A stretch of DNA of 64,000 nucleotides from an uncultured Gammaproteobacteria bacterium (GTDB lineage Bacteria; Pseudomonadota; Gammaproteobacteria; Chromatiales; Chromatiaceae): assembly GCA_937926265.1 (NCBI GenBank), contig CALAZS010000130.1, positions 2,796-66,795 on the forward strand. Direction: 5' to 3'. This document shows positions 1 through 44,452 of this stretch, piece by piece (the first letter of the stretch is position 1; each line of letters starts with the position of its first letter). The notes beneath the pieces were generated by a model. That model was given only the letters and a program-made list of their open reading frames with translations. It was not told the origin of the DNA and ran no database searches. Position numbers and translations under genes: made by a program.

Positions 1-851
1 AACAGCGTCTGACCTTCCGAATTACCAAAAAATTCAAGTTGCGCTTTTACTGGCACACCGAATGTAAAACCACTGGTATCAAAGCCCGGCTCAAATTCAG
101 GCATTGGACGCGCATACTCATCACCAGCATCAAATGCTGCGGCAACATTAAAAACCTTGCTTGCATCGTCAATGCAGACCGTAAAAATTGACACACAGTC
201 GAGTGAACGACATGCCGGCACTACACCCGAATTACTCAGCAAACCACGTGAGGGTTTTAAACCTACCAGGTTATTGAAAGCAGCAGGTACTCTGCCAGAA
301 CCCGCGGTATCAGTACCCAGTGAAAAACTTACCTGGCCCAGGGCAACAGCAATGGCCGAACCTGAACTGGAACCACCTGAAATATAATCGGCATTGATAC
401 TGTTTTTACCCGGACCGTATGGTGATCTGGTGCCCACCAGCCCAGTCGCAAACTGATCCAGATTGGTCTTTCCAATCGGGATTGCTCCTGCCTGTATCAA
501 ACAAGCAACCACATAGGCATGACTGTCAGGCTGGTATGCATAGTCCGGGCAGGCCGCTGTGGTTGGCAGATCAGCAAGATCAATGTTGTCTTTTATAGCA
601 AATGGTATTCCATATAAGGGTTTTGACTGATCATCAAAATCACCTAAATCATCAAGATAGCAATCCAGTTGTTCAGGTGACAGGCGACTGATCCAGGCAT
701 TATGGTCAGGCTGTTCATCAATACGCTGCTGAACCAGTTCAATCACGTCTTTGGGTGTAAACTGTTCATCTCTATAGCCGTTGTGAAGCGTATTGATATC
801 CAGGCTGATATTTTTACTGATGTTATTATTCATTTTAGTATGCGTCGTCAT
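1..851 (-). CDS. Allophanate hydrolase (amidase-signature enzyme), N-terminal ~283 codons; 3' end lies beyond window start
   Basis: Absent from the ORF track because it runs off the edge. Reverse translation from ATG at 849-851 gives MTTHTKMNNNISKN...LYGIPFAIKDNIDL...GGSSSGSAIAVALG...GTDTAGSGRVPAAFNN (amidase Gly/Ser-rich signature). Starts 21 nt after the carboxylase stop. Confidence 0.85.
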   Translation of the reverse strand, partial: MTTHTKMNNNISKNISLDINTLHNGYRDEQFTPKDVIELVQQRIDEQPDHNAWISRLSPEQLDCYLDDLGDFDDQSKPLYGIPFAIKDNIDLADLPTTAACPDYAYQPDSHAYVVACLIQAGAIPIGKTNLDQFATGLVGTRSPYGPGKNSINADYISGGSSSGSAIAVALGQVSFSLGTDTAGSGRVPAAFNNLVGLKPSRGLLSNSGVVPACRSLDCVSIFTVCIDDASKVFNVAAAFDAGDEYARPMPEFEPGFDTSGFTFGVPVKAQLEFFGNSEGQTL

Positions 852-872
852 GGTCTTGTTCCTGCTCCACTC

Positions 873-3800
873 TTATGACTGTTCAAGTCTTAAAACAATC
901 AAAGCCTGACCAGCTGATATGGAAGCTCCCTGCTGACACAAAATTTCTTCCACGACCCCTATCTCATCTGACTCAATTGGAATTTCCATTTTCATTGCTT
1001 CCAGCACCAGCAGTTCCTGGCCAGGCTCAACCCTCTCACCGGGCTTAACCATTAGCTTCCAGACACTGCCTGTTACCGGTGATGCAATGGCAATGCAGCC
1101 AGCAGGAATTTCAAATGGCGCATCACTGCTGGCTACTTCATCCGGTATTTCCTGATCAAAAGAAGCCTGCCCGGTTTCTTCCCAACGTTGTCTTTCGGCT
1201 TCAAAGGCTGATTGTTGAGTTGACTTAAACGCTTCAATTGACGCTGCATTGTCAGCTAAAAATGCCAGGTACTCTTTTAACTTCAGCGTTGTATTTTCTA
1301 TCTTCAGGCTTGCACGGCCCAGAGGGAAATCGCGTCGCCATTGCTGCAGCTCCTCCCGGGAAACTTCGTAAAAATGTATCTGGTCAAAAAAGCGCAACAA
1401 CCATTGACGTCCATCAATAAAGTCTGCGGTTTGCCGGTAGCGATTCCACATCTGTATTGTACGACCAACAAACTGGTAACCTCCCGGCCCCTCCATTCCA
1501 TAGACACACATATAGGCACCACCGATGCCCACGGCGTTCTCAGGTGTCCAGGTTCGTGCAGGGTTATATTTTGTGGTCACCAGGCGATGACGCGGATCTA
1601 CCGGTGTAGCAACCGGCGCTCCAAGATATACATCACCAAGCCCCATAACAAGGTAACTTGCGTTAAAAACAATTTGCTTTACATCCTCAATTGATTCGAG
1701 ACCGTTGATTCTTCGAATAAACTCGATATTACTCGGGCACCAGGGCGCATCCGGCCGGACTGACTGCATATACTTTTCGATTGCCAGCCTGGTTGATGGG
1801 TCGTCCCATGACAATGGTAAATGGACAATACGGCTGGGCACCTCCATATCAGCAATAGCTGGTAATTCACTTTCAGCCTGCAGCAGCAAATCAAGTAATT
1901 GCATCTGACTGATTTGCTGATTATCAAAGTGCACCTGTAAAGAACGAATACCCGGAGTCAGGTCAATCAGGCCCTTAAGCTGCTTGGCATTAATCCATTG
2001 CATCAGGGCATGTACTCGGAATCTAAGATTTAAGTCCAGAACCTGTGGTCCATATTCTATTAAAAGATTTTCATCGCCTGACTGACGATAACAGACATCT
2101 ATTTGCTGTCCGCTTTTACCTGCTGTTTTTCTAAGTAATACAGGATCGGCTGTTTCGCCCGGCACCAGGCCGTTTATGTCAGGTAATTTATCTGTTTTGA
2201 ATTCATTAATTATTGCCTGCTGATGACATGCAAGACTGGCAGCCTCATCAACTGAAACACAATGAAAACGGATTTTATCTCCCGGCTTGAGCTGTCCCAT
2301 TTTCCAAAGATCAGCCTGAATTATCGTTGCCGGACAGACAAACCCTCCCAGGCTTGGGCCATCAGGTCCAAGAATGATTGGCATATCACCGGTAAAATCA
2401 ATGGCACCGATGGCATAGGCATTATCATGAATATTTGATGGATGCAGTCCTGCCTCCCCGCCATCCTCGCGAGCCCAGGCTGGTTTAGGTCCAATTAACC
2501 GAACACCGGTGCGGCTGGAATTATAGTGAACTTCATAATCTGTCGAGAACAGTGTTTTTATATCTTCCTCTGTAAAAAAATCAGGTGCGCCATGCGGGCC
2601 ATACATGACATTGATATCCCAGTGATCGGGATAACTTGGTATTAAGGTCTGAGGGAGTTTTTCATAATCTATGGCACCTTTATTCTGTTTATATAGCCTT
2701 AAAACATCGCCAACCCTTAATGCCCGGCCCGCGTGACCGCCAAACTTGCCCAGCGTAAATGTAGTTCGCGAACCCATATACTGTGGAACATCAAATCCAT
2801 CTTTAACCGCCAGGTAGGTTCGATTACCCTGACCTTCAATGGTCCGTAACTTTAAAATGCTGCCTGCTTTTACAGGTATAGCTTGCCAGTATTCAACTTC
2901 TTTGCCATCAAGTAATGCTTTCATCTTTGCGCCGGTAAGCGCAATGACAGTATCGGCATTAAATTGCAGGCTGGGGCCGGTTACTGTCATCTCAAGACCA
3001 GCAGCGTCATCATTGTTGCCGAGGATTCGATTGGCCAGACGAAATGCATATGTGTCCATCGGGCCGGATGGTGGCACACCAATATCCCAGTAACCAATAC
3101 GCCCGGGATAATCGACAATAAAGCTCTGAGTGCCCGGCGAAACAACGTCAATAGTTAACGGTGCGAAGTTAAATTTATCCAGGTACCTGGTAAAATGACG
3201 GGCTTTAACAAATACCTCATCCTGGATTATGCTGCCAAGGTACTCAAGGTTTGTTTCGATCCCGTATAAATGTGTGGCTTTTATGGCGTTGAAAAGCTTC
3301 CCCCGAACACTATCGCGATTATTGTCATGAGCAATCAGCTTGGCAATCATCGGATCATAAAAAGCAGGTACCTCACTCCCTTGTTCCACCCATGTATCTA
3401 CACGGACATTGTCTGGAAAACAAACATCGGAAAGCAAGCCTGGGCAAGGCTGAAATTTTTTGCCCGGATCCTCGGCATATATTCGGACCTGCATTGCGTG
3501 ACCATTTGGCTGGTGCTTATAATCAGCAAGAGAGGCATTATCATCGGCAGCAGTCCGAATCATCCACTCAACCAGGTCAACACCGGTAACCATCTCGGTA
3601 ACACCGTGCTCTACCTGTAACCGCGTATTAACCTCAAGAAAATAAAACTCATTGCTTAAAGAGTCATAAACATACTCCACCGTACCGGCTGAGCGATAGT
3701 TTACTGCCTTACCCAGATTAACGGCCGCCGTCATCAGGCGCTGACGTAATTCTTCTGATATGTCAGGTGCCGGGGTTTCTTCTATGACTTTCTGGTTTCG

Positions 3801-4496
3801 CCGCTGTACTGAACAGTCACGCTCCCCAAGCGCCACAACATGACCCTTACCATCACCGAATATCTGGACTTCAATGTGCCTTGCTTTTTCAACATACTTT
3901 TCCAGAAAGATACCGCCCTGGCTAAAATTACTTCGCGCAAGGCGTTCCACTGAATGAAACGCATCTGAAAGCTCTTGTTCTGACCAGCATAGTTGCATAC
4001 CTATACCACCGCCACCAGCAGTGCTTTTCAGCATTACAGGATAACCAATGGCCAAAGCTTCTCGCCTGGCATGATCTAAATCATCAAGCAACCCGGTACC
4101 GGGTAATAAAGGTACATTGTTATCTTTAGCTAATGACCTGGCAGTATGCTTCAGACCAAAGTCTCGCATTTGCCTGGGTGTGGGACCTATGAAAGCTATG
4201 TTGTGCTGTTCGCAGGTTTCCGCAAACTCTGCGTTCTCACTTAAGAACCCATAACCGGGATGAACAGCCTCTGCTCCAAAGTCCTTAGCTACCTGCAATA
4301 TTTTTTGAGTATCAAGATAACTTTCGGAAGCGGGACCTGGGCCAATACATACAGCCTCATCTGCTTCAGAAACATGCAGCGAGGCCTCGTCGGCCTCTGA
4401 ATAAACAGCCAGGGACTTAATCCCCATCGACTTCAAGGTTCGAATTATGCGGCAGGCAATTGTACCGCGGTTGGCAATTAATACTTTTTTAAACAT
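873..4496 (-). CDS. Urea/guanidine carboxylase (biotin carboxylase + KipI/KipA-type carboxyltransferase + biotinyl domain)
   Basis: 1207-aa ORF. N-terminal ATP-grasp biotin carboxylase ([27 protein letters not shown]), large central carboxyltransferase region, C-terminal biotinylation motif LEAMKME. The guanidine-II riboswitch candidate directly upstream favours guanidine as substrate. Confidence 0.9.
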
Positions 4497-4507
4497 AGGA
4501 TAATGCC

Positions 4508-4527
4508 GTAATACTTAGTCGTATTAC
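4508..4527 (-). promoter_or_regulatory. GTAATAC-N6-GTATTAC perfect inverted repeat between riboswitch and carboxylase start codon (RNA hairpin and/or operator)
   Basis: Read directly: 7-bp arms at 4508-4514 and 4521-4527. The same heptamer recurs at 11558-11564 and 11579-11585 in the operon leader. Confidence 0.4.
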
Positions 4528-4541
4528 CAGCTAGTATTAAT

Positions 4542-4588
4542 GGCAGGTCGTCCTACCGTTTTACCACATCGTCGGGTCGTCCCGGCGA
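4542..4588 (-). promoter_or_regulatory. Guanidine-II (mini-ykkC) riboswitch candidate
   Basis: Minus-strand RNA has two hairpins. P1 is UCG-C-CGGG[ACGA]CCCG-A-CGA (4588..4569) and P2 is GGUAGG[ACGA]CCUGCC (4557..4542). Both are GC-rich stems capped by ACGR tetraloops closed by GG/CC, with an 11-nt linker. The element lies 23 nt after the DUF1989 stop and 45 nt before the carboxylase ATG. Confidence 0.75.
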
Positions 4589-4610
4589 AGATCAAATTAT
4601 GTGATTTTTG

Positions 4611-5249
4611 TCAGTCCCAGATCAGTACTTCAACAGGTGTAGGGTTATAGGCATTACAGGGATTGTTCAATTGCGGGCAATTGGATATTAAAACGATAAC
4701 ATTCATTGCAGCCTTTAACTCAACATATTTACCGGGTGACGAAATACCATCTTCAAATGTCAAACCACCATCCGGTGTGACTGGCACATTCATAAAAAAA
4801 TTAATATTGTGGGTAATATCTCTTTTGCTCATTCCATACTGTTCATTTTCGGCTATAGCCAGCATCCAGCTATCCCGACAGGCATGCATACACTTTTTAT
4901 CCAATGCATAGCGAACCGTATTACTTTCCGTGGCACATGCCCCACCTATGGTATCGTGTCTCCCACAAGTATCCGCGACAATCTCCAACATAAGATTCAT
5001 TTCATTAGAGAGCAGTTTAGTGCCAGTAGTCAGGTAAACATTACCCTGTTCCCTTATGGTATCGATGGCACTGTAGCGCTCACCCGGATCGTCGGCGTTA
5101 TAAAACAAAGTATCAGCAGCCTGGTTACCTTCAAGATCCAGAATCCTCACCGTCTGACCTGCCTTGACAACCTGCATATAGTAATCGCCGGCAAGCACCA
5201 TCTTTCTATCGCAGGCATCTTCAGGTTTAAGGGTACTCTCTTTAATCAT
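4611..5249 (-). CDS. DUF1989 / urea-carboxylase-associated protein (carboxyguanidine deiminase CgdAB-like subunit)
   Basis: 212-aa ORF, paralogous to the upstream 248-aa ORF with an 8-nt overlap. It occupies the conserved position next to the carboxylase. Confidence 0.75.
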
Positions 5250-5988
5250 GGCAACATCCCTGCCCTAAATGGAAAATTTCATTGTTTTTAAAGCCCCGTT
5301 GATTTTCTGGTCTGAAATTCATACAGAAGTCATCGGGTTGAATTTCAGCTGCCTGGCGTATTTCATATTTAACAGGTTTTTGCGGATATTCAGTGGCCGG
5401 GTTTAAAGGATGCGGACAGGTGTGGAATAACACCAGCGTGTCCATTTCAAAACGCAGCTCTATGTAGTCCCCGGCTTTACTGTTGTTTTCGATATATTTC
5501 AAATTACCCTGTTCATCAACCGTGACGCCGCTGAAAAGATTAAGATTTGAAGCCATGTCTTTACGTCCTAGTCCATGCTTGGCCAATTCAACCAGGAAAC
5601 TGTTGTAACCATTCTGGTTCCAGTCGTTATGATAATCCTGGTAGGTTTTTTCACCCCATTTTTCTTTTACTGTTTTGCTGGTGGTATTACCACAAACGGT
5701 TTCATGCCAACCGACAGTATCTTCAACAATCGAGCAAAATACCCTGCCCATATCTGAATAAAGACAATTCCCCTTGGTTAGCTTGAAGGTATGCTGGCAT
5801 TTCAGGGTATCTGGTGCGTTGTACTTTTCCAGTAAGTTGGTCGGGTTATAGAACAACATACCAACGTTGGCTCCACCTGTTTCATCAATCAGTCTTAAGC
5901 AGGTTCCCTTGCGCATAAGCAAAGACCAGTGGCAACCACCAGCCAGCTGATCTTCATATAAAACTGTTCCGGGCTCTATTGTTTTCAT
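5242..5988 (-). CDS. DUF1989 / urea-carboxylase-associated protein (carboxyguanidine deiminase CgdAB-like subunit)
   Basis: 248-aa ORF, the larger paralog of the pair that typically precedes urea/guanidine carboxylase genes. Confidence 0.75.
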
Positions 5989-6000
5989 ATTTACCCCTTT

Positions 6001-6480
6001 CTATAGCCTTTCTTTATCTTGGATTTCAGGCAGAGGATGTAACGGCGGAATGATAGCTGCTGACATTAGCAACTTACCACTGATAACACCCCTGCAGGTT
6101 TTCATTTTATTAGCGATTAATTTTAATTTTTCTCCCGGCCCCTGAACCAGAATCACCGCCATGGTCTTTTTTTGTTCCAGGTTAACATTCAATACACTAA
6201 TGACTTCATCTATAAATTCATGCATTAAATCTGACAACTTTCTCTGTAACCCTGGTACAGAATAGTCATATATCAGGTTAATTGTACCGGCCATAATTTC
6301 TTCACCTACATCCTGCCTATGTTCAACCAGTTGCTGATGAATCATGTCCGCCATTGCCCGGGAGCGGCTTTCATAACCCTTTTCATCAACCATCTGATCA
6401 AACTCAAGCGCCAGATTCTCGGGTAACGACACACTGATACGACTGACTCTGCGCTGGCTTTTCGGGTTGACCTGCTTCAT
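6001..6480 (-). CDS. NikR-fold (ribbon-helix-helix + ACT-like) transcriptional regulator lacking the canonical Ni ligands
   Basis: 159-aa ORF. The N-terminal RHH (RISVSLPENLALEFDQMVDEKGYESRSRAMADMI) matches the NikR/CopG pattern. The C-terminal domain aligns by eye to the NikR metal-binding domain, but HxH...C is replaced by NVN...T. Confidence 0.65.
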   Translation of the reverse strand: MKQVNPKSQRRVSRISVSLPENLALEFDQMVDEKGYESRSRAMADMIHQQLVEHRQDVGEEIMAGTINLIYDYSVPGLQRKLSDLMHEFIDEVISVLNVNLEQKKTMAVILVQGPGEKLKLIANKMKTCRGVISGKLLMSAAIIPPLHPLPEIQDKERL

Positions 6481-6496
6481 ACCTGCTTCATATATG

Positions 6497-7858
6497 TTAA
6501 AACAAGTGACTGTAACGATCTATTTCCCAGCTTGATATCGTCTGGTGATACTCATTCCATTCCTGGCGTTTATAGCGAATAAACTCATCCCTGAGTGGTT
6601 TGCCAAGCACTTCTGTAACAAGGGGGTCGGCTTCGAACGCATCCACTGCCTCCAGCAGGTTTTTGGGTAAAAACTCTATGCCCCGCTCGGCCCTTTGTTC
6701 CTCGGTTAGTTCGTAAAGGTTATCTTCCTGTGGATTACCCGGATCAATCGATTCTTTAATACCTTCAAGTCCCGCTGCCAATGCCAGCGTTGCAGCAAGA
6801 TAAGGATTAACAGCGCCATCAGCATTACGTGACTCACAACGCCCACCACCCATCGGTACGCGAATCGAATTTGTTCGGTTATTAGAGCCGAAAGAATTGA
6901 ACACCGGTGCCCAGGTAAAATAAGGCATGTCACCCTGGCGTACCAAGCGCTTGTAACTGTTGACGGTAGGAGCAAAGGCCGCACAGAGTGCCTTGCCATG
7001 CTTGATAATGCCGCCAATGAAGTTATAACCCAGCGGGGTTAATCCTAGTCCTTTTGGGTCTTCAGCAGGATCACAGGCAAAAAGGTTTTTACCACTGTTT
7101 ATGTCATATAACGACATATTGAAATGCGCCCCATTACCCGTCTTATCTGCAAAAGGCTTTGGCATAAATGTCGCGATCAGCCCCTCCTGCTTGGCATATT
7201 CTTTCGCCATGAGACGTAAAAATATATAACGGTCACAACTGGTAACTGCATCGGCATACATGAAATCAAATTCGTATTGCCCATTGGCATCTTCATGGTC
7301 GAACGAGTAAAGGTCCCAGCCCAGGGCATTTATTGTCGAGGCCATTTTATCTAGCCAACCAAACTGATCTAGAAAGCCGCGAGCATCGTAACAGGGCTTG
7401 GTTAACTTATCGTCCGGATTTGGAATACTTAATGAGCCATCTTCATTTTGCTTCAATACAAAAACTTCTGCTTCGATACCCAGGTTAAAACCAAAGCCCA
7501 TATCGGCTGCCTGTGATAAAACATTCTTCAAGGCAACACGGGTATTTAATGCATAAGGCTCGCCTTTAAAGGTATTGTCTGCCGGCATCCAGGCCACTTC
7601 AGGCTGCCATGGCAGCTGGATGATATGGTCAAGGTCGGGTAACGATGCAATCTCATCATCGTTAGGTGCCTGGCCAAGACCATCCAGTGCATAGCCGGTA
7701 TACAATTCAGAACCATGCGCCATATGTTCAAGATGTTCAATTGGTACAACTTTACCCTTTGGTACTCCATGAATATCAACATAGGCACCCAGACAATATT
7801 TGACGCCCAATGAAGTAAGCTTATCCTGAATCTCCTTTATTTCCTGCGAACTTTTCAT
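6497..7858 (-). CDS. Glutamine synthetase-like ATP-dependent ligase (GS family, PuuA/GmaS-like size)
   Basis: 453-aa ORF with GS catalytic-domain blocks ([48 protein letters not shown]). ATGA overlap with the upstream creatininase-like gene. Confidence 0.8.
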
Positions 7859-8637
7859 AATTCACTTTCCATGCTGATTGCTTCGGAATAACCAAAGGGT
7901 AATGGCGGGATTTCCTGCATACCTTTTTTGACAGTTTCACTTAAATCTTCAACCATCCATTCAAACAACTGTTGACCTTTATCAGCACTTGCAAGACTTG
8001 GTTTACCTGTTACACCATTTTTGCTGGTTCGGTTTACAGGATGGGAAAATACACAATTTTCAGTTCGGTCTTCATCATCACAATCCTGTATACGATCGGA
8101 ACGGACCATCTTAGGACTCAAGGCCATCATCAACGAGGTTTCAGCGTCATTGGCATGCCAGTCATCAGCATCATGAAAGTGGGCTTGTTTTACACGTTCA
8201 CTGATTGAGGCTGAATTGATCAGGGCGATCATGAAATCATCGTATTCGGCACGCAACATCTCTAAAGCACAACGCAGTGGCGCGAAGTTGGTGACATGCG
8301 TATTAATAATAAACAGACGCTTAAAACCAGATGCATAGACCCAATCGCCAATCTGTTTAACGATATCGATCAGAGTCTTTGGTTGTAAAGCAATCGTTCC
8401 TGGCCAGCGTTTCGAATGACCTATTGAGCAGCCAAAAGATTGAGTTGGCAATAAAGCCGCACCGGTTTTTTCAGCAACAGCTTCACACAAGTGCGATGCA
8501 ATATCGGCATCCATACCGCAACCCATATGTGGACCATGTTGTTCAGTTGCACCCACTGGAAGGATGGCTGTGTCCATACCGTTTGAAATCAATTCACCAA
8601 CCTCTTCCCAGGTCATGGTGTGCCATTTGTTCAGCAT
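7855..8637 (-). CDS. Creatininase-family amidohydrolase
   Basis: 260-aa ORF with family motifs [26 protein letters not shown] and HANDAETS. Its start codon abuts the TAG stop of the ABC ATPase gene. Confidence 0.8.
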
Positions 8638-9561
8638 CTAGAAAACGCTCTCTACCTCATTATCAACGCCCACCATTCGTACCATATTGAGATGATCACT
8701 GTTGACACCCTCCTCTTCTTCAGAAGGTGGATGAATCAATTCTTCAAGGCGTTTTTTGGTGGCTAGAAACTCAGCGGACAGAAGCTGCTCTGGAGATCTT
8801 GGCTGCGGCACGGGCACTTCAATAATCTCATTGACTTCTCCTGGATGGGCTTTTAATACCAGGATACGATCCGCCAGATAAATGGCTTCATCCAAATCAT
8901 GCGTAATAAAGAAAATCGTGATATCAATGTTTTGCCAGATTTCCATGAGATACTGCTGCATCTTGGCACGGGTTTGCGCATCCAGTGCGCCGTAAGGCTC
9001 ATCCATCAATAAGATACGCGGCTGATTGGCCAAAGCCCTGGCTATAGCGACACGTTGTTTCATACCACCCGACAACTCATGTGGGTAGCTATCTTCAAAT
9101 TTACCCAAGCCAACCAGGTCGATCCATTGACGCGCATCTTCCTCTGCCAGCACTTTACTGTGGCCTGATTGTTCTAAACCAAACATGACGTTTCGCTTAA
9201 CGGTCAGCCACGGAAACAAAGTATAACCCTGAAACACCATGCCACGATCAGGGCCAGGACCCTGTACCGGTTTGCCATCAAGTATAATTTCACCGGAAGT
9301 CGGCGTTTCCAAGCCAGCTAGAATCCGAATCAGTGTAGACTTACCACATCCGGAAGGGCCGATCACACAAACGAATTCTCGCTTGTGTACGGTAAAGTTT
9401 ATGTCTTTTAAAGCAGTGACCTTAGCCCCGGTTGGGGTTTCAAACTGCTTGTAAAGATTTTTAATCTCCAATGCTATTGGGCGTTGTTTTATCCGGGCAA
9501 AGCGATCTTTAACGTCTTCGTCTTGATCAAGGTAGCTGGGCAAATCGACTAAATGTTCCAT
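8638..9561 (-). CDS. ABC transporter ATP-binding protein (NitT/TauT family)
   Basis: 307-aa ORF with Walker [10 protein letters not shown], signature LSGGMKQR and Walker B LLMDEP. Confidence 0.9.
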
Positions 9562-9573
9562 AACAATATGTCC

Positions 9574-10539
9574 TTAAGCTTTTGCTTTTCTTTGCCATGG
9601 GAACAAGCGTTTACCCATCTGCGCAAGTATGAGATCGGTCGCCAATCCAATAATGCCAATAATCATGATCGCGGCAAAAACATTATCAAAGTTTTTATAG
9701 CGTGCCTGCTGAGTGATAAACCAGGTAATTCCTGAGCTGGTACCAATCAATTCGGCGACGATCAGATAGGTCCAGGCCCAGCCAAGCAAAATTCGCATAT
9801 CACGATAAAGATCGGGCAATACGCCTGGCACAACTACTCTGAATAACAAGGCTTTATTTTTTGCACCCAGTGTTTGAGCGGCTTCAAGTAATGATGGATC
9901 AAGCTTGCGCGTGGTATTGGAGATGACCAATACCTGTTGGAAAAAAGTACCAATGAAAATAATGGCGATTTTGGGGGCATGATGAATACCCAAAATTGCT
10001 ACTGCCAGCGCACCAAAAGCCGGTGCTGGCAGGTAACGAAAGAATTCAATAAACGGTTCAAACAACCGTGAGAAAAAATCATAGGTGCCAGCCAGAATCC
10101 CTAACGGCACACCAATTAATGAGGAAAGGAAAAATCCCCAGAAAATAACCTGAATACTGTCCCAAAGGCTTTCATGCAGCCATTTTTCAGTTCGTCTCTT
10201 TGGTGGTGTAGTAAAGGCGGTATAAAAAGCTTCAGCCACCTCATGTGGCGCAGGCAGATAGATAGGGTTTGCTGGATCGCCCTGGGGAAGCGTCTTACTG
10301 GCTTCTTTCGCCTTTAAAGACTCTTCATCAAACAGCTCACGATCTACAAGCATTCCTTCTTTGAAATAGGAAACTGCACCGGGTTCGGTTATTTCTACTT
10401 TAGGGTGCCACAACCAGGGCACATAACTGACCAGGCACCAGAGCAGAAGAGGTAATGCAAAGCTCATTACAGTAATCATGACACGAGACCTTGGCCTCAG
10501 TTCTTTTCGAACTGCAAACAGTTGTTTGAATGAACTCAT
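9574..10539 (-). CDS. ABC transporter permease (NitT/TauT family)
   Basis: 321-aa polytopic ORF with an EAA-type loop (LEAAQTLGAKNKALLFRVVVPGVLP). Confidence 0.85.
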   Translation of the reverse strand: MSSFKQLFAVRKELRPRSRVMITVMSFALPLLLWCLVSYVPWLWHPKVEITEPGAVSYFKEGMLVDRELFDEESLKAKEASKTLPQGDPANPIYLPAPHEVAEAFYTAFTTPPKRRTEKWLHESLWDSIQVIFWGFFLSSLIGVPLGILAGTYDFFSRLFEPFIEFFRYLPAPAFGALAVAILGIHHAPKIAIIFIGTFFQQVLVISNTTRKLDPSLLEAAQTLGAKNKALLFRVVVPGVLPDLYRDMRILLGWAWTYLIVAELIGTSSGITWFITQQARYKNFDNVFAAIMIIGIIGLATDLILAQMGKRLFPWQRKAKA

Positions 10540-10567
10540 GTACTTCTCCCGCTCCGGACTACCCGAA

Positions 10568-11545
10568 TTAAAGTTCGGCCATCAATGACATATCGATGTA
10601 AGCATCAACGTCTTCAGGAGATTCATATACTTTGTTGGCTACATTGAAGTCATCTGAGATTTTTGAAGAACCGTAGATTGAGGTGAAACCCTCTGCCTTA
10701 GGTGCAAACTTCATGGCCTCTTCAAGAGTCATGATATTGGTTCCGCTAATCAGTTTTTTGTATTCAGCAGGCTCCAAACCGACGCGAGCCGCCATAATTT
10801 CAACTGCATCAGCGTTAGTGGCCGGGTCTTTAAGGTAAGCAACAGACTTGTACCAGACTTTTAAAACTTTCTTCCAGTCATCACGTCTAGCCGCGAGGCT
10901 TTCAGGAGAAACAGCTAAAACGTCGTAGATCAAACCCGGTTCATCTTTACTGGTGTAGATCGCTTTTGAACCAGGAACGAGTGATAACGCCTGACCAGAG
11001 CTTGGCTGCCATGCAACAACCGCATCCACTTCACCAGAAGCCAAAACCTGAGGTGTTTCATTAGTCGGTACATTGACCAGTTCAACATCAGCCTCTGTAA
11101 GACCAGCACCTTCCAAGGCATTCAACAGCAGCAAATGACCTACAAAGCCAATTTCAACACCAATTTTCTTTCCTTTCAGGTCTTTAACTGAATCGATACC
11201 CGGCAGGGCAACGACCATGTCATTGCCATTACTGTAATCGTTAATCAGGATCATGACGCTTTTCGCACCGGTTGCACCGGTAACCAGGGCGTCACCATTG
11301 GTCATGCTGACCGCATCAAGTTTGCCTGCCGCATAAGCATCCATGGAAGCCACATAGTCAAACCACTCAAAAACAACATCTACACCTTCTTCTTTGAACC
11401 ATTGTTTTTCAATGGCAACTTCCCATGCAACCCACCCGGGCCAATCACTGTAGCCAATCTTCAATGGTTCGGCGGCTTTCGCAGTGGTACTAATGGCTAT
11501 TGCCACTAACAAGGTAGATATAATGCGCTTCATAAAACTTTTCAT
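10568..11545 (-). CDS. ABC transporter periplasmic substrate-binding protein (NMT1/TauA-like)
   Basis: Signal peptide [25 protein letters not shown] prefer the ATG at 11545, 5 nt after a GAGGAG Shine-Dalgarno, over the GTG at 11551 used in the ORF track. Confidence 0.8.
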
Positions 11546-11592
11546 GGACACTCCTCAGTATTACGATTTGATAAAAAAGTATTACCAGGAAT

Positions 11593-11608
11593 CGCAATTA
11601 CCAGGCCA
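11593..11608 (-). promoter_or_regulatory. Sigma54 (-24/-12) promoter candidate for the transporter-to-allophanate-hydrolase operon
   Basis: Minus strand reads TGGCCTGGTAATTGCG, which is TGGC-N7-TTGC with exact consensus spacing, about 50 nt upstream of the SBP start codon. Confidence 0.6.
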
Positions 11609-11762
11609 ACTTAAGTAAGCCACTGTTTTTATTCAATTTAACTTACTTTTGTTGTAGATAAGTTTTTGTAAACGCACCAAAAAGCTTCAATTCATTATCT
11701 TTATCGCGCTAAAAAAGTGCATTAAGTCACTCTTAAATTGAATACTCAGTTAAAATCACGTC

Positions 11763-13685
11763 ATGCTTCAATTCAATAATCTCAGTATCCGTCGCGGTAC
11801 CAGTCTGTTGTTTTCAGATGCGACGTTTAACATTTATCCGGGACACAAAATTGGTATAACCGGCGCCAATGGTTGTGGTAAATCCAGCCTGTTTGCAGTC
11901 ATCAGGAAAGAACTTGCAGCCGATGACGGCAGCTTTTCCATGCCTGCCAACTGGACAATTGCTCATGTAAAGCAGCAGACGCCACAGGATGAAAGATCTG
12001 CTATCGACTATGTGCTTGACGGCGATAGTGAATACCGTGAGCTTGAAGCACAGATAAAAAAAGCCGAACTAAACCATGATGGCAACCGCCTCGCGCACCT
12101 GCACGAGCAGTTTGACCATATTGGTGGATACCGTGCCCCTAGTCGGGCAGCACGTTTACTGCATGGTCTGGGCTTCAGCAATGAACAGGAAAACCTTGCG
12201 GTAAACAGTTTTTCCGGTGGCTGGCGCATGCGCCTTAACCTGGCCCAGGCCTTGATGTGTCGTTCGGATTTATTACTACTTGATGAGCCAACCAATCATT
12301 TGGATCTTGATGCCGTTATCTGGCTGGAACAATGGCTGGCTGAATACCAGGGCACACTGTTACTGATTTCACATGACCGCGATTTTCTCGATAAAGTCTG
12401 TGAACAGATTGGCCATATCGAACAAAACCAGATAAACCTCTATGCCGGCAACTATTCCGCTTTTGAAAAAATACGGGCCGCCAAGCTTGCCAATCAACAG
12501 GCCGAACATGAAAAACAGCAACGTGAAATAGCTCACATCCAACACTACATCGATCGCTTTCGCGCCAAGGCCACCAAGGCCAGGCAGGCACAAAGCCGAA
12601 TCAAGGCGTTACAGAAAATGGAATTAATTGCACCCGCCCATGTTGACTCGCCATTTCATTTTTCTTTTCTGAACGCGGATAAACAACCCAACCCGCTAAT
12701 CAAACTGGATGGCGTTAGCCTTGGCTATGAACTAAACAAACCAATTTTGGATAAGCTGACCATGGTATTAAGCCCGGGTGACCGTCTTGGGTTGCTGGGT
12801 GCCAACGGTGCCGGAAAAAGCACACTGATCAAATCCCTGGCAGAACAATTACAACCACTTAATGGCGATATCCACAAAGCCCAGGACTTAAAGATCGGTT
12901 ACTTTGCACAGCACCAGGTAGAACAGCTACACCCTGAACATACGCCATTGGAACATCTGCAACAATTGGACAGGCATGCAACTGAGCAGCAGTTAAGAAA
13001 CTTTCTCGGTGGCTTTGGTTTTTCCAATGATAAGGCACTGGAAAAAACCGCCCCCTTTTCCGGTGGAGAAAAGGCCCGTCTTGCGCTTGCCCTTATTGTT
13101 TATCAGCGGCCTAACCTGCTGTTACTGGATGAACCGACCAACCATCTCGATATCGAAATGCGCCAGGCTCTTGCTCAGTCATTACAGGATTTTGAAGGTG
13201 CCATGGTCATTGTTTCGCATGATCGTCACCTGTTAAGGGTCAGCTGTGACCAACTGTTAATTGTTGCCAATCATGAAATTGATGAATTTAAAGAAAGCCT
13301 GGATGACTACCCGAAATGGCTGGCCCGACAACAAGCCATGCAGAACCAGTTTGAATCAGACATAAAATCCTCCAGTGACAATTCGGCTGCTGCGAAAAAG
13401 GAACGAAAACGCAAACAAGCTGAGCAACGAAAAAAATTGCAGCCCCTGCAAAAAAAGTTAAAAAGCATAGAAGAAAACATTAAACAGCTCGGTTCTGAGC
13501 AGAAGCAGTTGGAAAAGCAGTTAACTGACAATTCACTGTATGAAAACGAAAACAAGGATCTTCTTCAGGAAATTCTTTTACAAAAACAAAAGATTGATAC
13601 TGAACTGGAAGATAGCGAATATCTTTGGCTGGAAGTTTCTGAAAAAATCGAAATGATTACTGAATCATTTGCTGAAGATGCATAA
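11763..13685 (+). CDS. ABC-F family ATPase (YheS/Uup-like translation factor type)
   Basis: 640 aa with two ABC cassettes (GANGCGKSS/LSGGWRMR and GANGAGKST/FSGGEKAR), no TM domain and a Lys/Glu-rich coiled-coil tail. Confidence 0.85.
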   Translation: MLQFNNLSIRRGTSLLFSDATFNIYPGHKIGITGANGCGKSSLFAVIRKELAADDGSFSMPANWTIAHVKQQTPQDERSAIDYVLDGDSEYRELEAQIKKAELNHDGNRLAHLHEQFDHIGGYRAPSRAARLLHGLGFSNEQENLAVNSFSGGWRMRLNLAQALMCRSDLLLLDEPTNHLDLDAVIWLEQWLAEYQGTLLLISHDRDFLDKVCEQIGHIEQNQINLYAGNYSAFEKIRAAKLANQQAEHEKQQREIAHIQHYIDRFRAKATKARQAQSRIKALQKMELIAPAHVDSPFHFSFLNADKQPNPLIKLDGVSLGYELNKPILDKLTMVLSPGDRLGLLGANGAGKSTLIKSLAEQLQPLNGDIHKAQDLKIGYFAQHQVEQLHPEHTPLEHLQQLDRHATEQQLRNFLGGFGFSNDKALEKTAPFSGGEKARLALALIVYQRPNLLLLDEPTNHLDIEMRQALAQSLQDFEGAMVIVSHDRHLLRVSCDQLLIVANHEIDEFKESLDDYPKWLARQQAMQNQFESDIKSSSDNSAAAKKERKRKQAEQRKKLQPLQKKLKSIEENIKQLGSEQKQLEKQLTDNSLYENENKDLLQEILLQKQKIDTELEDSEYLWLEVSEKIEMITESFAEDA

Positions 13686-14317: not shown

Positions 14318-15157
14318 TCATTCAAGGACCATGAGCGGTTCTCCCTGCTTAAGAACACCTTCATTATCATGGATGACATTCTGACCGAAAAACACCTTGT
14401 TACCTTCACGCCGGTACTTGGCCAAGGTTAGCAACGGCTCTGCACCTTTCACTGCAGTTTCAGGATTTACCGTGGTAATCGCACAGCGTGAACAGGGTTT
14501 AACAACACGAAAATGGATATCGCCAATTTTGACAATACGCCATTTATCCTCTGCATATGCATCAACGTCATCGATCACCAGGTTAGGCCTAAAGCGCTTA
14601 ACCGTCATTTGCTGGGTTTTGTCCTTTGTATGATTCTGAATACTATTATGGATCCTATTATGAATTCGGGTATTCAGATCTTCTATTGATGCCTGGCTCA
14701 ATAGCAAAAATGGAAAGCCATCAGAAAAACCGGTCTGGTCATCCGCTTTGGCATATTCCTGGTCAACCTGGCGCTGCGCTTCTTCAGGCATTTTCACCAG
14801 CCTGACAGGCTCATCCAGACAGTCGCTGAACCATTGATCGGCCTTATCACTTACCAGGTCCGCATTAATGCTGTCCTGCCAGACATTTACTTTTAATTTT
14901 TGCCCGGTGGATTGATTCAAACTTATCTGCAGATCTGGTTTGTCCGGGAAACTTGCAATCAAATGATCCTGTTCAAGTTGAACAGAAAATAAAGCCATTT
15001 GCGGCTTTTGTCGTTGCGTGACAAACACGCCATCCGTATCAACCAGCATCCAGTGTCTGTCCCATTGAAAGCCGCGCTGGTCGATAACTGCATTTGGCAA
15101 ACGGATTCCCGGAAGGGATTTAACCGGGTAAATCCAGATTTCGCTGAGTACTGCCAT
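14318..15157 (-). CDS. MOSC domain-containing protein (YcbX-like)
   Basis: MAVLSEIWIYPVKSLPG N-terminal beta-barrel plus the MOSC Cys motif KPCSRCAITTVNPETA. Start moved to the ATG at 15157; the 33-codon upstream extension would overlap pilU. Confidence 0.8.
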   Translation of the reverse strand: MAVLSEIWIYPVKSLPGIRLPNAVIDQRGFQWDRHWMLVDTDGVFVTQRQKPQMALFSVQLEQDHLIASFPDKPDLQISLNQSTGQKLKVNVWQDSINADLVSDKADQWFSDCLDEPVRLVKMPEEAQRQVDQEYAKADDQTGFSDGFPFLLLSQASIEDLNTRIHNRIHNSIQNHTKDKTQQMTVKRFRPNLVIDDVDAYAEDKWRIVKIGDIHFRVVKPCSRCAITTVNPETAVKGAEPLLTLAKYRREGNKVFFGQNVIHDNEGVLKQGEPLMVLE

Positions 15158-15254
15158 GATGATTCCTATAAAAACTCGTTCAACTTCGAGTCGTTTTTCT
15201 CTAAACTGTTTGTGATAATGACCGATGATAGTAGGACAGCCACTCGGAGGAAAC

Positions 15255-44390: not shown

Positions 44391-44452
44391 TAATACCTAC
44401 TCCAGTATTTATTTAGGTTTTGCCAGGCACTTAACCAGTCATTACTCATAAC

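What the first reader, a model, noticed from the sequence alone, without database searches (positions are those of the whole stretch)
1..11608. Ten-gene sigma54-type operon embeds the guanidine carboxylase pathway behind extra genes not part of the described pathway
- **Packing:** all ten genes are on the minus strand. Intergenic gaps are 12-28 nt or overlaps (ATGA at 7855-7858, TAG/ATG abutting at 8637/8638, an 8-nt overlap at 5242-5249). The only larger gap is the 114-nt one that holds the riboswitch.
- **Comparison with the described route:** published guanidine assimilation needs guanidine carboxylase, the heteromeric DUF1989 carboxyguanidine deiminase (CgdAB) and allophanate hydrolase, often with a NitT/TauT ABC importer.
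- **Extra genes here:** a creatininase-family hydrolase, a GS-like ligase and a NikR-fold regulator are inserted between the importer and CgdAB.
- **Proposed logic (inference):** sigma54/nitrogen control acts at the front and a guanidine sensor acts only in front of the ATP-consuming carboxylase. This fits a feed-forward design in which an imported precursor, such as a substituted guanidine or a cyclic amidine like creatinine, is processed to free guanidine, which then licenses the carboxylase. I do not know of a described pathway with this composition.
Basis: partly seen in the sequence, partly recalled or inferred. Interest (0 to 1): 0.7.

Follow-up and report, generated by a model that had tools for sequence, protein, structure and literature searches.

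The report
Extended guanidine-assimilation operon with new parts
This is a real ten-gene nitrogen-starvation operon for using guanidine. In dozens of bacterial species it also carries an uncharacterised enzyme pair and a nickel-regulator look-alike that sits where other bacteria have a guanidine riboswitch.

Summary
Window 1-11608 (minus strand) carries ten tightly packed genes:
- a NitT/TauT-type ABC importer (three genes);
- a creatininase-family hydrolase (Crn);
- a GS-like ligase (GSl);
- a NikR-fold regulator;
- two DUF1989 subunits (CgdAB);
- a guanidine-II riboswitch;
- guanidine/urea carboxylase (Gca);
- allophanate hydrolase, cut by the window edge.

The extra genes are not an accident.
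- **Co-occurrence:** in 80 species-level loci from at least five phyla, GSl lies next to Crn in 75 of 76 informative cases. The pair usually sits with this importer and CgdAB-Gca.
- **GSl:** it belongs to the GmaS clade, but its amine pocket always carries Ser and Asp where GmaS has Gln175 and Asn188.
- **Crn:** it lacks the residues that bind creatinine in creatininase.
- **NikR-like protein:** it lacks the nickel site, yet a NikR-type 28-bp operator (GTAWTAC-N14-GTAWTAC) lies between a conserved sigma54 promoter and the first gene. The operator occurs only in genomes that have this regulator.
- **Genomes without the regulator:** five have a guanidine-I riboswitch at that position.

The operon is therefore an undescribed, widespread variant of the guanidine carboxylase system. 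The substrate of Crn/GSl is not shown; I propose gamma-glutamylation of guanidine or a close derivative, followed by hydrolysis.

The parts
1..851 (-). Allophanate hydrolase, N-terminal 283 codons; the gene runs off the window start.
   Evidence: Translation. NCBIfam NF006043 and TIGR02713 match over the part present. Full-length AH follows gca in related loci.
873..4496 (-). Biotin-dependent guanidine/urea carboxylase (Gca), 1207 aa.
   Evidence: Pfam biotin carboxylase, CT_A_B, CT_C_D and biotinyl domains. TIGR02712 1925 bits against a cut-off of 1304.
4508..4540 (.). Three GTAWTAC-like 7-mers at 13-nt spacing. Two of them form a 7-bp hairpin in the mRNA between the riboswitch and the gca start codon. 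Role unexplained.
   Evidence: Not found before gca in other loci.
4544..4588 (-). Guanidine-II (mini-ykkC) riboswitch aptamer in the cgdB-gca gap.
   Evidence: Rfam RF01068 29.7 bits, E = 4e-4, gathering score 32. Two ACGA-loop hairpins in the MFE and centroid folds, z = -2.8. The same motif with stem covariation precedes gca in 12 loci.
4611..5249 (-). DUF1989 subunit of carboxyguanidine deiminase (UAAP2 type; called CgdB here).
   Evidence: PF09347. TIGR03424 340 bits against a cut-off of 285.
5242..5988 (-). DUF1989 subunit of carboxyguanidine deiminase (UAAP1 type; called CgdA here).
   Evidence: PF09347. TIGR03425 329 bits against a cut-off of 206.
6001..6480 (-). NikR-fold (ribbon-helix-helix + NikR_C) regulator without the nickel site. 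Predicted repressor of the operon.
   Evidence: Pfam. P. horikoshii NikR (2bj1) E = 4e-31, with His89->Asn, His91->Asn and Cys97->Thr. The operator co-occurs with the gene.
6497..7858 (-). GS-like ATP-dependent gamma-glutamyl ligase of the GmaS clade with a changed amine pocket (Ser/Asp in place of Gln175/Asn188).
   Evidence: PDB 9qur glutamate--methylamine ligase E = 3e-120 and 7cql E = 4e-99. Residue mapping over 60 orthologues.
7855..8637 (-). Creatininase-family metal amidohydrolase (Crn). It is not a creatininase orthologue. Its stop overlaps the GSl start (ATGA).
   Evidence: PF02633. TIGR04448 136 bits against a cut-off of 235. Alignment to 3a6h/1j2t. 70-87% identical homologues across many taxa.
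8638..9561 (-). ABC transporter ATPase (NitT/TauT type).
9574..10539 (-). ABC transporter permease.
10568..11545 (-). Periplasmic substrate-binding protein (NMT1/SsuA-like). Related to, but not a member of, the canonical 'urea carboxylase region' SBP family.
   Evidence: Pfam NMT1. TIGR03427 151 bits against a cut-off of 334.
11558..11585 (.). 28-bp dyad operator GTAATAC-N14-GTAATAC (read on the minus strand), between the -12 element and the ribosome-binding site. Predicted binding site of the NikR-like regulator.
   Evidence: Present upstream of the SBP gene in 24 of 29 loci with the regulator gene and 0 of 13 without it. Same 7-N14-7 geometry as published NikR operators (PMC7055735, PMC545781).
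11593..11607 (-). Sigma54-type -24/-12 promoter element, TGGCCT-GGTAA-TTGC.
   Evidence: Sequence. Matching element upstream of the SBP gene in 30 of 58 loci against about 4 expected. NtrC-like GCAC-N7-GTGC palindromes upstream of it in 8 of 29 loci against 0.4 expected, but none exact in the window.

Best explanation
The region is one nitrogen-scavenging operon for guanidine-type compounds. It is a widespread but undescribed extended form of the guanidine carboxylase system.

**Shown by sequence and comparison**
- Transcription starts at a sigma54 promoter.
- A 28-bp NikR-type operator overlaps the start region.
- The NikR-fold protein encoded inside the operon has lost the nickel site.
- Across genomes, this regulator-plus-operator occupies the positions where genomes without the regulator gene carry guanidine riboswitches.
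- An internal guanidine-II riboswitch additionally gates the carboxylase gene.
- CgdAB, Gca and allophanate hydrolase carry out the published route: guanidine -> carboxyguanidine -> allophanate -> NH3 + CO2.

**Inferred**
- The regulator is a repressor that is released by guanidine or a closely related pathway metabolite.
- The importer brings in guanidine or a close N-substituted guanidine.
- GSl uses ATP and glutamate to gamma-glutamylate that compound. N-acylation makes the very stable guanidinium group hydrolysable, just as N-carboxylation by Gca does.
- The tightly coupled Crn then cleaves the acyl-guanidine. Its family namesake hydrolyses the cyclic acyl-guanidine creatinine.
- The products (glutamine plus urea, or gamma-glutamylurea plus NH3, or for substituted substrates free guanidine) feed the Cgd-Gca-AH steps and glutamine/glutamate metabolism.
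For: **Conservation**
- The order SBP-perm-ATPase-Crn-GSl-(NikR)-CgdA-CgdB-Gca recurs in Gamma-, Beta- and Alphaproteobacteria, Verrucomicrobiota, Binatia and Planctomycetota.
- GSl is adjacent to Crn in 75 of 76 informative loci.
- The importer lies within 8 kb in 47 of 50 loci.
- Cgd/Gca lie within 10 kb in 27 of 41 loci with full flanks.

**GSl**
- Glutamate, Mg, ATP and catalytic residues of RhGmaS (Asp177, Glu186, Arg312) are kept.
- Gln175->Ser, Asn188->Asp and His237->Asn occur in 60 of 60 orthologues. Both solved GmaS enzymes keep Gln, Asn and His (residue roles from PMC7948447).
- The GS ammonia residues (Asp50', the Glu of the flap) are absent.
- More distant relatives share the Ser/Asp signature. 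One of them (42% identical) again has Crn next to it.

**Crn**
- The metal and catalytic His/Glu/Asp positions are kept, but Trp154, Trp174 and Glu122 of creatininase are replaced.
- Invariant acidic clusters are present.

**Gamma-glutamyl hydrolase-type gene.** A class-I GATase/C26 gene follows GSl in some loci.

**Regulation**
- A guanidine-I riboswitch lies directly upstream of the SBP-...-Crn-GSl unit in 8 loci and upstream of cgdA in 6. A guanidine-II riboswitch precedes gca in 12 loci.
- The operator GTAWTAC-N14-GTAWTAC lies upstream of the SBP gene in 24 of 29 loci with the NikR-like gene and 0 of 13 without. Guanidine-I lies there in 0 of 29 and 5 of 13.
- The operator is also found before cgdA and before an accessory Rieske oxygenase gene.
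- At spacing 14 there are 37 operator-type hits. My rough estimate of the chance expectation is about 1. No other spacing except 5 gave more than 3, and spacing 5 (11 hits) is mostly one conserved coding sequence.
- The Ni-ligand Cys is absent in all 30 orthologues.
- The sigma54 element is conserved.
Against: - No biochemical or expression data exist for Crn, GSl or the regulator. The substrate assignment is chemical reasoning only.
- Guanidine (pKa about 13.6) is a poor nucleophile for a GS-type ligase.
- Creatininase-type attack at the acyl carbon of gamma-glutamylguanidine would simply regenerate glutamate and guanidine, a futile cycle.
- If the pair already breaks down guanidine, the need for CgdAB-Gca in the same operon is unexplained.
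- Gln175 and Asn188 also contact ATP in RhGmaS, so the substitutions need not concern the amine.
- The SBP is not the canonical guanidine-operon type. Some loci carry a second transporter next to cgdAB (L041, L085). Both points favour a substrate other than guanidine.
- The loci were collected by similarity to Crn, so the share of all gca operons that carry the module is unknown.
- In the window the NtrC-like sites are imperfect. The gca riboswitch has an unusual 47-nt spacer without an obvious Shine-Dalgarno sequence.
Confidence: 0.5

Rival explanations
1. The importer takes up a precursor structurally distinct from guanidine, such as a cyclic amidine or another acyl/alkyl guanidino compound. 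Crn and GSl convert it to free guanidine, and only then does guanidine license the carboxylase through the guanidine-II riboswitch.
For: - Published precedent: MgdH/MgdL embedded in a gca operon convert methylguanidine to guanidine (PMC12508155).
- The SBP is not the canonical uca type: 151 bits against a cut-off of 334.
- A second transporter sits next to cgdAB or next to oxygenase sets in L041, L071 and L085.
- The module can be separated from cgdAB-gca. In 14 of 41 loci with full flanks, cgd/gca are absent within 10 kb.
- Variable oxygenase and hydrolase sets under guanidine riboswitch control sit beside the module.
Against: - An ATP-consuming gamma-glutamyl ligase has no obvious place in releasing guanidine from a precursor.
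- The unit is itself under guanidine-I control in at least 8 loci. This is compatible with product induction but gives no support for a distinct precursor.
- Crn lacks the creatinine-binding residues.
- No candidate precursor is indicated by any gene in the window.
Confidence: 0.2
2. Alkylamine capture. Alkylguanidines such as methylguanidine are split, by Crn or by the Cgd-Gca-AH steps, to urea/allophanate plus an alkylamine. GSl acts like GmaS and traps that amine as a gamma-glutamyl amide.
For: - The closest solved relatives of GSl are glutamate--methylamine ligases.
- Many carriers are methylotrophs: Methylobacillus, Methylotenera, Methylophaga, Hyphomicrobium, Methylobacterium/Methylorubrum.
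- Guanidine-II riboswitches bind methylguanidine as well as guanidine (PMC12508155).
- MgdH/MgdL homologues lie beside the module in L003 and L034.
Against: - The amine pocket differs from both solved GmaS enzymes at invariant positions.
- Many carriers are sulfur-oxidising autotrophs. No N-methylglutamate pathway genes turned up among the recurrent families in the loci.
- Crn is an amide hydrolase family, not a ureohydrolase.
- The strict Crn-GSl coupling is not explained.
Confidence: 0.12
3. The NikR-like protein is a genuine metal (nickel) sensor. It represses the nickel-independent, ATP-costly carboxylase route when nickel is available for urease or Ni-guanidinase (nickel-sparing logic). 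The Crn/GSl genes are simply co-regulated nitrogen-scavenging enzymes.
For: - It passes the NCBIfam NikR model NF003381: 110.6 bits against a cut-off of 105.
- Operator geometry and half-sites are close to known NikR sites (PMC545781, PMC7055735).
- About half of the orthologues keep His89 and His91.
- Ni-dependent guanidine hydrolase is a known alternative route (cited in PMC12186494).
Against: - Only 1 of the 4 high-affinity Ni ligands is kept in the window protein.
- The Cys ligand is absent in 30 of 30 orthologues and His78 is variable.
- The regulator and operator alternate with guanidine-I riboswitches at the same positions. This points to a guanidine-related signal.
- No nickel transport or nickel enzyme genes were seen in the loci.
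Confidence: 0.1

Closest known systems
Guanidine carboxylase pathway operons (ABC importer, CgdAB, guanidine-II riboswitch, Gca, allophanate hydrolase) of Raoultella, Klebsiella, Erwinia and Pseudomonas syringae
   Same: - Same four catabolic proteins, passing the equivalog models.
- Same order cgdA-cgdB-[guanidine-II]-gca-AH.
- An ABC importer of the NitT/TauT type at the front (PMC12186494, PMC12508155).
   Different: - No guanidine-I riboswitch at the front. A sigma54 promoter plus a NikR-type operator sits there instead.
- Three extra genes (Crn, GSl, NikR-like) lie between the importer and cgdA.
- The SBP is outside the canonical TIGR03427 family.
Vreelandella boliviensis gca operon extended by MgdH/MgdL (methylguanidine demethylation)
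   Same: A guanidine carboxylase operon that carries additional enzymes widening the substrate range, with an internal guanidine-II riboswitch (PMC12508155). Homologues of MgdH/MgdL lie beside the present module in L003 and L034.
   Different: - The extra enzymes here belong to unrelated families: a creatininase-family hydrolase and a GS-like ligase instead of a 2-OG dioxygenase and a lyase.
- They lie upstream of cgdAB.
- They are far more widespread.
- They have no known activity.
Gamma-glutamylmethylamide synthetase (GmaS; PDB 7cql, 9qur) and other gamma-glutamylation pathways (PuuA/PuuD, IpuC/IpuF, TdnQ/TdnT)
   Same: - GS fold.
- All glutamate, Mg and catalytic residues of GmaS are kept.
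- The ligase is paired with a hydrolase. In some loci a class-I GATase/C26 gene follows, as with PuuD, IpuF and TdnT (the pathway analogies are from my own knowledge).
   Different: - Invariant Ser/Asp/Asn at GmaS positions 175, 188 and 237.
- The partner is a creatininase-family metal hydrolase.
- The genomic setting is guanidine catabolism, not the N-methylglutamate pathway.
NikR nickel-responsive repressors
   Same: - RHH plus NikR_C fold.
- 28-bp dyad operator with 7-N14-7 geometry. Half-sites are one base away from the delta-proteobacterial NikR consensus GTGTTAC/GTAACAC (PMC545781).
- The operator overlaps the promoter of a transporter operon.
   Different: - The square-planar Ni site (3 His + Cys; PMC7055735) is not conserved.
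- The target is a guanidine operon driven by sigma54.
- It alternates with guanidine riboswitches across genomes.
Creatinine amidohydrolase (P. putida, PDB 1j2t/3a6h)
   Same: - Same Pfam family.
- The Glu34/His36/Asp45/His120 metal positions and the His178 position are conserved.
- The namesake substrate is a cyclic acyl-guanidine.
   Different: - The match is only E = 1e-22, and the equivalog cut-off is missed.
- Trp154->Ala, Trp174->Ala, Glu122->Thr and Tyr121->Val (roles of these residues from my own knowledge of the creatininase structures).

Membership tests
Guanidine carboxylase pathway (Gca + CgdAB + allophanate hydrolase) | Biotin-dependent carboxylase with BC, CT and BCCP domains of the urea/guanidine carboxylase family | tested here: met
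   Pfam domains. TIGR02712 1925 bits against a cut-off of 1304.
Guanidine carboxylase pathway (Gca + CgdAB + allophanate hydrolase) | Two different DUF1989 subunits encoded side by side | tested here: met
   TIGR03425 (329 bits) and TIGR03424 (340 bits), both above their cut-offs.
Guanidine carboxylase pathway (Gca + CgdAB + allophanate hydrolase) | Allophanate hydrolase | tested here: met
   The N-terminal 283 aa match NF006043 and TIGR02713 over the part present. The gene is cut by the window edge.
Guanidine carboxylase pathway (Gca + CgdAB + allophanate hydrolase) | Preference of the carboxylase for guanidine over urea | not testable with these tools
   Only indirect evidence: a guanidine-II riboswitch directly upstream.
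Guanidine-II riboswitch (RF01068) | Two hairpins with ACGR tetraloops closed by G-C pairs, joined by a short linker | tested here: met
   GGGACGACCC and AGGACGACCU hairpins.
Guanidine-II riboswitch (RF01068) | Score at or above Rfam's gathering threshold | tested here: not met
   29.7 bits against 32. Orthologous sites in L016 (32.4) and L052 (41.4) pass.
Guanidine-II riboswitch (RF01068) | Second hairpin placed next to the Shine-Dalgarno sequence and start codon of the regulated gene | tested here: inconclusive
   10-25 nt to the ATG in other loci. In the window the distance is 47 nt, with an extra hairpin and no clear SD.
Creatininase (EC 3.5.2.10) | Equivalog-level sequence match | tested here: not met
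   TIGR04448 136 bits against a cut-off of 235. PDB creatininases match at only E = 1e-22.
Creatininase (EC 3.5.2.10) | Substrate-sandwiching Trp154 and Trp174, and Glu122 | tested here: not met
   Aligned residues are Ala143, Ala157 and Thr116. The residue roles come from my own knowledge.
Creatininase Pfam family PF02633 (metal amidohydrolases) | Family HMM match and conserved metal/catalytic positions | tested here: met
   PF02633 243 bits. Glu32, His34, Asp43, His114 and His161 are invariant among the 20 aligned sequences, the window protein and 19 homologues.
Gamma-glutamylmethylamide synthetase (GmaS) | GS fold with catalytic Asp177, Glu186 and Arg312 and the glutamate/Mg ligands | tested here: met
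   All conserved in 60 of 60 orthologues.
Gamma-glutamylmethylamide synthetase (GmaS) | Amine-pocket residues Gln175 and Asn188 (PMC7948447) | tested here: not met
   Ser and Asp in 60 of 60 orthologues. Gln and Asn in 7cql and 9qur.
Glutamine synthetase (ammonia-using) | Asp50' loop aspartate and the Glu-flap glutamate | tested here: not met
   Thr and Trp at the aligned positions (roles from PMC7948447).
NikR nickel-responsive regulator | RHH DNA-binding domain plus NikR_C domain | tested here: met
   PF01402 + PF08753. NF003381 110.6 bits against a cut-off of 105.
NikR nickel-responsive regulator | High-affinity square-planar Ni site: three His plus one Cys (PMC7055735) | tested here: not met
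   The window protein keeps 1 of 4 ligands. Cys is absent in 30 of 30 orthologues.
NikR nickel-responsive regulator | 28-bp dyad operator (7-N13/14-7) at the regulated promoter | tested here: met
   GTAWTAC-N14-GTAWTAC at 11558-11585 and in 24 of 29 loci with the gene.
Sigma54-dependent promoter | GG and GC elements ten bases apart (TGGCAC-N5-TTGCW) upstream of the first gene | tested here: met
   TGGCCT-N5-TTGC at 11593-11607. Conserved in 30 of 58 loci against about 4 expected.
Sigma54-dependent promoter | Upstream enhancer-binding-protein sites | tested here: inconclusive
   Exact NtrC-like palindromes in 8 of 29 loci against 0.4 expected, but only one-mismatch candidates in the window.

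The most novel reading that the evidence does not exclude
Two novel claims remain open.

1. The NikR-fold protein would be the first protein transcription factor that senses guanidine or a guanidine-pathway intermediate. It would have arisen from a nickel sensor by loss of the metal site and would be interchangeable with guanidine-I riboswitches.
2. Crn and GSl would form a previously unknown second way to break the guanidinium group: ATP-dependent gamma-glutamylation followed by metal-dependent hydrolysis. One nitrogen would pass directly into glutamine, alongside the carboxylase route.
Probability: 0.3. Interest if true: 0.85.

Novelty: new variant of a known kind. Interest (0 to 1): 0.68.

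Why it matters
- **Gaps in guanidine biology.** Guanidine metabolism was recognised only after the guanidine riboswitches were decoded. Natural sources, transport and side branches are still largely unknown.
- **A widespread module.** The Crn-GSl pair with its own importer is tied to guanidine catabolism in marine, freshwater and soil bacteria. Carriers include methylotrophs and sulfur-oxidising autotrophs. This implies either a missing step or an additional natural substrate, and gives two concrete enzymes to assay.
- **A regulator-for-riboswitch swap.** It offers a testable candidate for a protein guanidine sensor. It is also an example of a metal sensor re-used for a metabolite, which could serve biosensor design.
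- **Annotation.** These genes are currently named creatinine amidohydrolase, type III glutamine synthetase and nickel-responsive regulator. Those names are probably misleading.

Tried and rejected
- **Rfam whole-window scan:** the gathering scan found nothing. The riboswitch appeared only in a local E-value scan.
- **Literature:** searches for the gene combination (creatininase + guanidine/urea carboxylase + GS) found no description of the module. The original riboswitch papers (PMC5360189, PMC5315402, doi 10.1111/mmi.14702) are not held. I therefore cannot exclude that they list creatininase or GS genes among riboswitch-associated genes.
- **Protein guanidine sensor:** no paper naming one was found.
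- **Recovering the full 68-kb contig** to see the end of the AH gene: look-ups for Gca failed, and GSl gave only a 7-kb contig.
- **SBP against PDB:** only distant sulfonate and taurine binders, which was uninformative.
- **True creatininase:** rejected on residues and cut-offs.
- **Ordinary ammonia-using GS:** rejected because Asp50' and the Glu-flap glutamate are missing.
- **Genuine GmaS:** rejected as a membership claim because of the invariant pocket changes.
- **Nickel sensing by the regulator:** judged unlikely.
- **Internal promoters or terminators splitting the operon:** no excess over shuffles.
- **Not done:** structure prediction and fold search. They would have restated fold membership without addressing the substrate.

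Full report
**1. What is in the window**

ORF listing, Pfam and NCBIfam confirm ten co-directional minus-strand genes between 1 and 11551.
- A NitT/TauT-type ABC importer: SBP 10568-11545, permease 9574-10539, ATPase 8638-9561.
- A creatininase-family protein (Crn): 7855-8637.
- A glutamine-synthetase-like protein (GSl): 6497-7858.
- A ribbon-helix-helix/NikR_C protein: 6001-6480.
- Two DUF1989 proteins: 5242-5988 and 4611-5249.
- A 1207-aa biotin carboxylase: 873-4496, TIGR02712 1925 bits.
- The first 283 codons of allophanate hydrolase: 1-851, cut by the window edge.

There is a 4-nt overlap at 7855-7858, the genes abut at 8637/8638, and there is an 8-nt overlap at 5242-5249. The other gaps are 12-28 nt, and one gap is 114 nt.

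That 114-nt gap contains a guanidine-II (mini-ykkC) motif at 4544-4588. It has two ACGA-loop hairpins and scores 29.7 bits (E = 4e-4). This is just under Rfam's gathering score of 32, which is why the whole-window scan returned nothing.

A consensus scan shows no excess of sigma70 promoters or terminators inside the block.

The window comes from a 68-kb contig of an unnamed gammaproteobacterial metagenome assembly.

**2. The extra genes are conserved with the pathway**

Crn has thousands of homologues; the 120 best are 69-100% identical. Three contexts fetched by exact protein look-up already showed the same order.

A scan of one genome per species returned 80 loci. Mapping the window's proteins onto them gave these results.
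- The order SBP-perm-ATPase-Crn-GSl-(NikR)-CgdA-CgdB-Gca recurs in Gamma-, Beta- and Alphaproteobacteria, Verrucomicrobiota, Binatia and Planctomycetota.
- GSl is adjacent to Crn in 75 of 76 informative loci: 69 as Crn>GSl and 6 as GSl>Crn.
- The importer is within 8 kb in 47 of 50 loci.
- Cgd/Gca are within 10 kb in 27 of 41 loci with full flanks.
- GSl is the most conserved protein of the set, at 67-90% identity.

The module can also stand apart from cgdAB-gca, or lie divergent to it (L028, L035, L044). L041 and L085 carry a second transporter next to cgdAB or to accessory genes.

One caveat applies. The loci were collected through Crn, so the share of all gca operons that carry the module was not measured.

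**3. What the three extra proteins are, and are not**

*GSl.*
- Its best solved relatives are glutamate--methylamine ligases: 9qur at E = 3e-120 and 7cql at E = 4e-99.
- I used the residue roles published for RhGmaS (PMC7948447). All glutamate, Mg, ATP-phosphate and catalytic residues (Asp177, Glu186, Arg312) are conserved in 60 of 60 Crn-linked orthologues.
- The ammonia-binding Asp50' and the Glu of the GS flap are absent, as in GmaS.
- Three positions differ invariantly: Gln175->Ser, Asn188->Asp and His237->Asn. Both solved GmaS enzymes keep Gln, Asn and His.
- A search of 1.8 billion representatives found the same signature in more distant clusters at 62%, 46%, 42% and 41% identity. The 42% one again has Crn directly upstream, in a different genomic background.
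- GSl is therefore an active gamma-glutamyl ligase of a distinct subfamily with a roomier, more acidic amine site.

*Crn.*
- It matches PF02633 but misses the equivalog cut-offs for creatininase, MftE and IolN.
- In the alignment to P. putida creatininase the metal and catalytic positions are kept: Glu34, His36, Asp45, His120 and His178.
- Tyr121, Glu122, Trp154 and Trp174 are Val, Thr, Ala and Ala.
- Several acidic clusters are invariant.

*NikR-like protein.*
- It matches P. horikoshii NikR at E = 4e-31.
- Of the four high-affinity nickel ligands (three His and one Cys; PMC7055735) the window protein keeps one. The Cys is missing in all 30 orthologues examined.

**4. Regulation**

*(a) Sigma54 promoter.* The element TGGCCT-N5-TTGC lies at 11593-11607. 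A matching element lies within 400 nt upstream of the SBP gene in 30 of 58 loci, against about 4 expected from the background rate. Exact NtrC-like palindromes (GCAC-N7-GTGC) lie 80-215 nt further upstream in 8 of 29 loci against 0.4 expected. The window has only imperfect candidates. The window also encodes two sigma54 activators elsewhere.

*(b) A conserved operator.*
- Aligning the leader regions revealed a 28-bp dyad, GTAWTAC-N14-GTAWTAC, between the -12 element and the ribosome-binding site. In the window it lies at 11558-11585.
- In a scan of all loci, spacing 14 gave 37 hits. No other spacing except 5 gave more than 3. Spacing 5 gave 11 hits, most of them one conserved coding sequence in the permease gene. 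My rough estimate of the chance expectation is about 1 per spacing.
- Most spacing-14 hits lie upstream of the SBP gene. Others lie upstream of cgdA (L029, L058, L069), of the regulator gene itself, or of an accessory Rieske oxygenase gene (L058).
- Among 42 informative species loci, the operator is present in 24 of 29 that have the NikR-like gene next to the unit and in 0 of 13 that lack it.
- The geometry equals that of known NikR operators. E. coli has GTATGA-N16-TCATAC, and delta-proteobacteria have GTGTTAC-N13/14-GTAACAC (PMC7055735, PMC545781).

*(c) Guanidine riboswitches.*
- An nhmmer search seeded from two Rfam-confirmed hits found guanidine-I riboswitches directly upstream of the SBP-...-Crn-GSl unit in 8 loci and upstream of cgdA in 6.
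- A guanidine-II motif precedes gca in 12 loci and cgdA in 4.
- In the informative set, guanidine-I upstream of the SBP gene occurs in 5 of 13 loci without the regulator and 0 of 29 with it.
- The protein-plus-operator and the riboswitch are therefore alternative devices at the same positions, often behind the same type of sigma54 promoter (L019, L032, L043, L046, L079).

My inference is that the NikR-fold protein is the operon's repressor and responds to guanidine or a closely related metabolite, not to nickel. None of this is experimentally shown.

**5. How it most likely works**

*Shown or strongly supported:* this is a nitrogen-limitation operon with layered control. The layers are a sigma54 promoter, a NikR-type operator and an internal guanidine-II riboswitch. 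The operon encodes the published guanidine carboxylase route plus a conserved importer-Crn-GSl module that belongs to the guanidine response.

*Inferred:* GSl gamma-glutamylates guanidine or a close N-substituted guanidine, and Crn cleaves the resulting acyl-guanidine.
- Acylation makes the very stable guanidinium group hydrolysable. This is the same logic as N-carboxylation by Gca followed by CgdAB.
- Creatinine, the substrate of the family namesake, is a cyclic acyl-guanidine.
- Both enzymes have acidic pockets that suit a cation.
- A class-I GATase/C26 gene follows GSl in some loci (L007 intact, L003/L004 split). This is the arrangement seen in other gamma-glutamylation pathways.

*Weak points:*
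- Guanidine is a poor nucleophile.
- A creatininase-like cleavage at the acyl carbon would be futile.
- It is unclear why both routes would be needed.
- The importer's SBP is not of the canonical type.

*Rivals:*
It has a precedent in MgdH/MgdL (PMC12508155), and variable oxygenase sets beside the module speak for a family of substituted guanidines.
- Alkylamine capture by a GmaS-like GSl. Many carriers are methylotrophs.
- True nickel sensing by the regulator.

**6. Comparison with what is known, and novelty**

The cgdA-cgdB-[guanidine-II]-gca-AH core and the importer at the front are the published layout (PMC12186494, PMC12508155).

The following appear to be new:
- the Crn-GSl pair;
- the NikR-like regulator with its operator;
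- the sigma54 front.

These are new as far as ten full-text searches can tell. The earliest riboswitch papers could not be read.

I class the finding as a new variant of a known kind. It is widespread and coherent, it gives a good candidate for a protein guanidine sensor, and it contains an enzyme pair of unknown chemistry.

**7. Verdict**

The extra genes do belong to the system. The 'precursor -> guanidine -> licence' logic is one open possibility, and the claim that guanidine is sensed only before the carboxylase does not hold across the family.
- Interest: 0.68.

Noticed in passing
window 4508-4540: Three GTAWTAC-like 7-mers at 13-nt spacing lie between the guanidine-II aptamer and the gca start. 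They share the half-site sequence of the NikR-type operator but have spacing 6, not 14. Two of them form a 7-bp RNA hairpin. The aptamer-to-ATG distance is 47 nt, against 10-25 nt in other loci, and no clear Shine-Dalgarno sequence is visible.
   Followed up: partly
window 14318-15256 (-): A MOSC_N + MOSC domain protein (mARC/YcbX-like) lies 2.7 kb beyond the operon's promoter. From my own knowledge, this family reduces N-hydroxylated amidines and guanidines. A link to the operon is not established.
   Followed up: no
window 38063-39466 (+) and 43029-46627 (-): Two sigma54-dependent response regulators are present. One is NtrX-like and has an NtrY-like histidine kinase next to it. The organism therefore uses sigma54 regulons. 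Neither regulator reaches an NtrC equivalog cut-off.
   Followed up: partly
L001 5020-8654; L010 4936-8610; L027 12139-14052; L031 4131-7017: A recurrent accessory set is preceded by its own guanidine-II or guanidine-I riboswitch. It comprises a membrane FA_desaturase-like di-iron protein, a metallo-beta-lactamase-fold protein, an AP_endonuc_2-like TIM-barrel protein and an EamA transporter. It sits beside the Crn-GSl module in sulfur oxidisers and Methylophilaceae.
   Followed up: partly
L058 6207-9953; L067 6078-10788; L071 16894-19744; L085 13807-16628: A different accessory set occurs in Verrucomicrobiota: a Rieske oxygenase, an FGE-sulfatase-domain protein, a TIM-barrel protein, an SDR and a polysaccharide-deacetylase-like protein. 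In L058 a NikR-type operator lies in front of the Rieske gene.
   Followed up: partly
L003 4380-6466; L034 4640-6738: Homologues of the methylguanidine hydroxylase/lyase pair MgdH/MgdL lie divergent to the module. In L034 a guanidine-II motif precedes them.
   Followed up: partly
L007 12150-12857; L003 12186-12885: A class-I glutamine amidotransferase/peptidase C26-like gene lies between GSl and the NikR-like gene. It is intact in L007 and split into two ORFs in L003/L004. This hints that a gamma-glutamyl amide or glutamine is an intermediate.
   Followed up: partly
L048 and L056 (Hyphomicrobium), about 5780-11813: A variant unit shows swapped order: a GSl at about 50% identity that still carries the Ser/Asp signature, then Crn. 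It has a more distant ABC transporter and a conserved 340-380 aa protein without a Pfam match. No cgdAB-gca lies within the flank.
   Followed up: no
proteins P0154, P0170, P0184: Very long proteins (4424, 2757 and 1356 aa) each contain three to six GS-like stretches.
   Followed up: no
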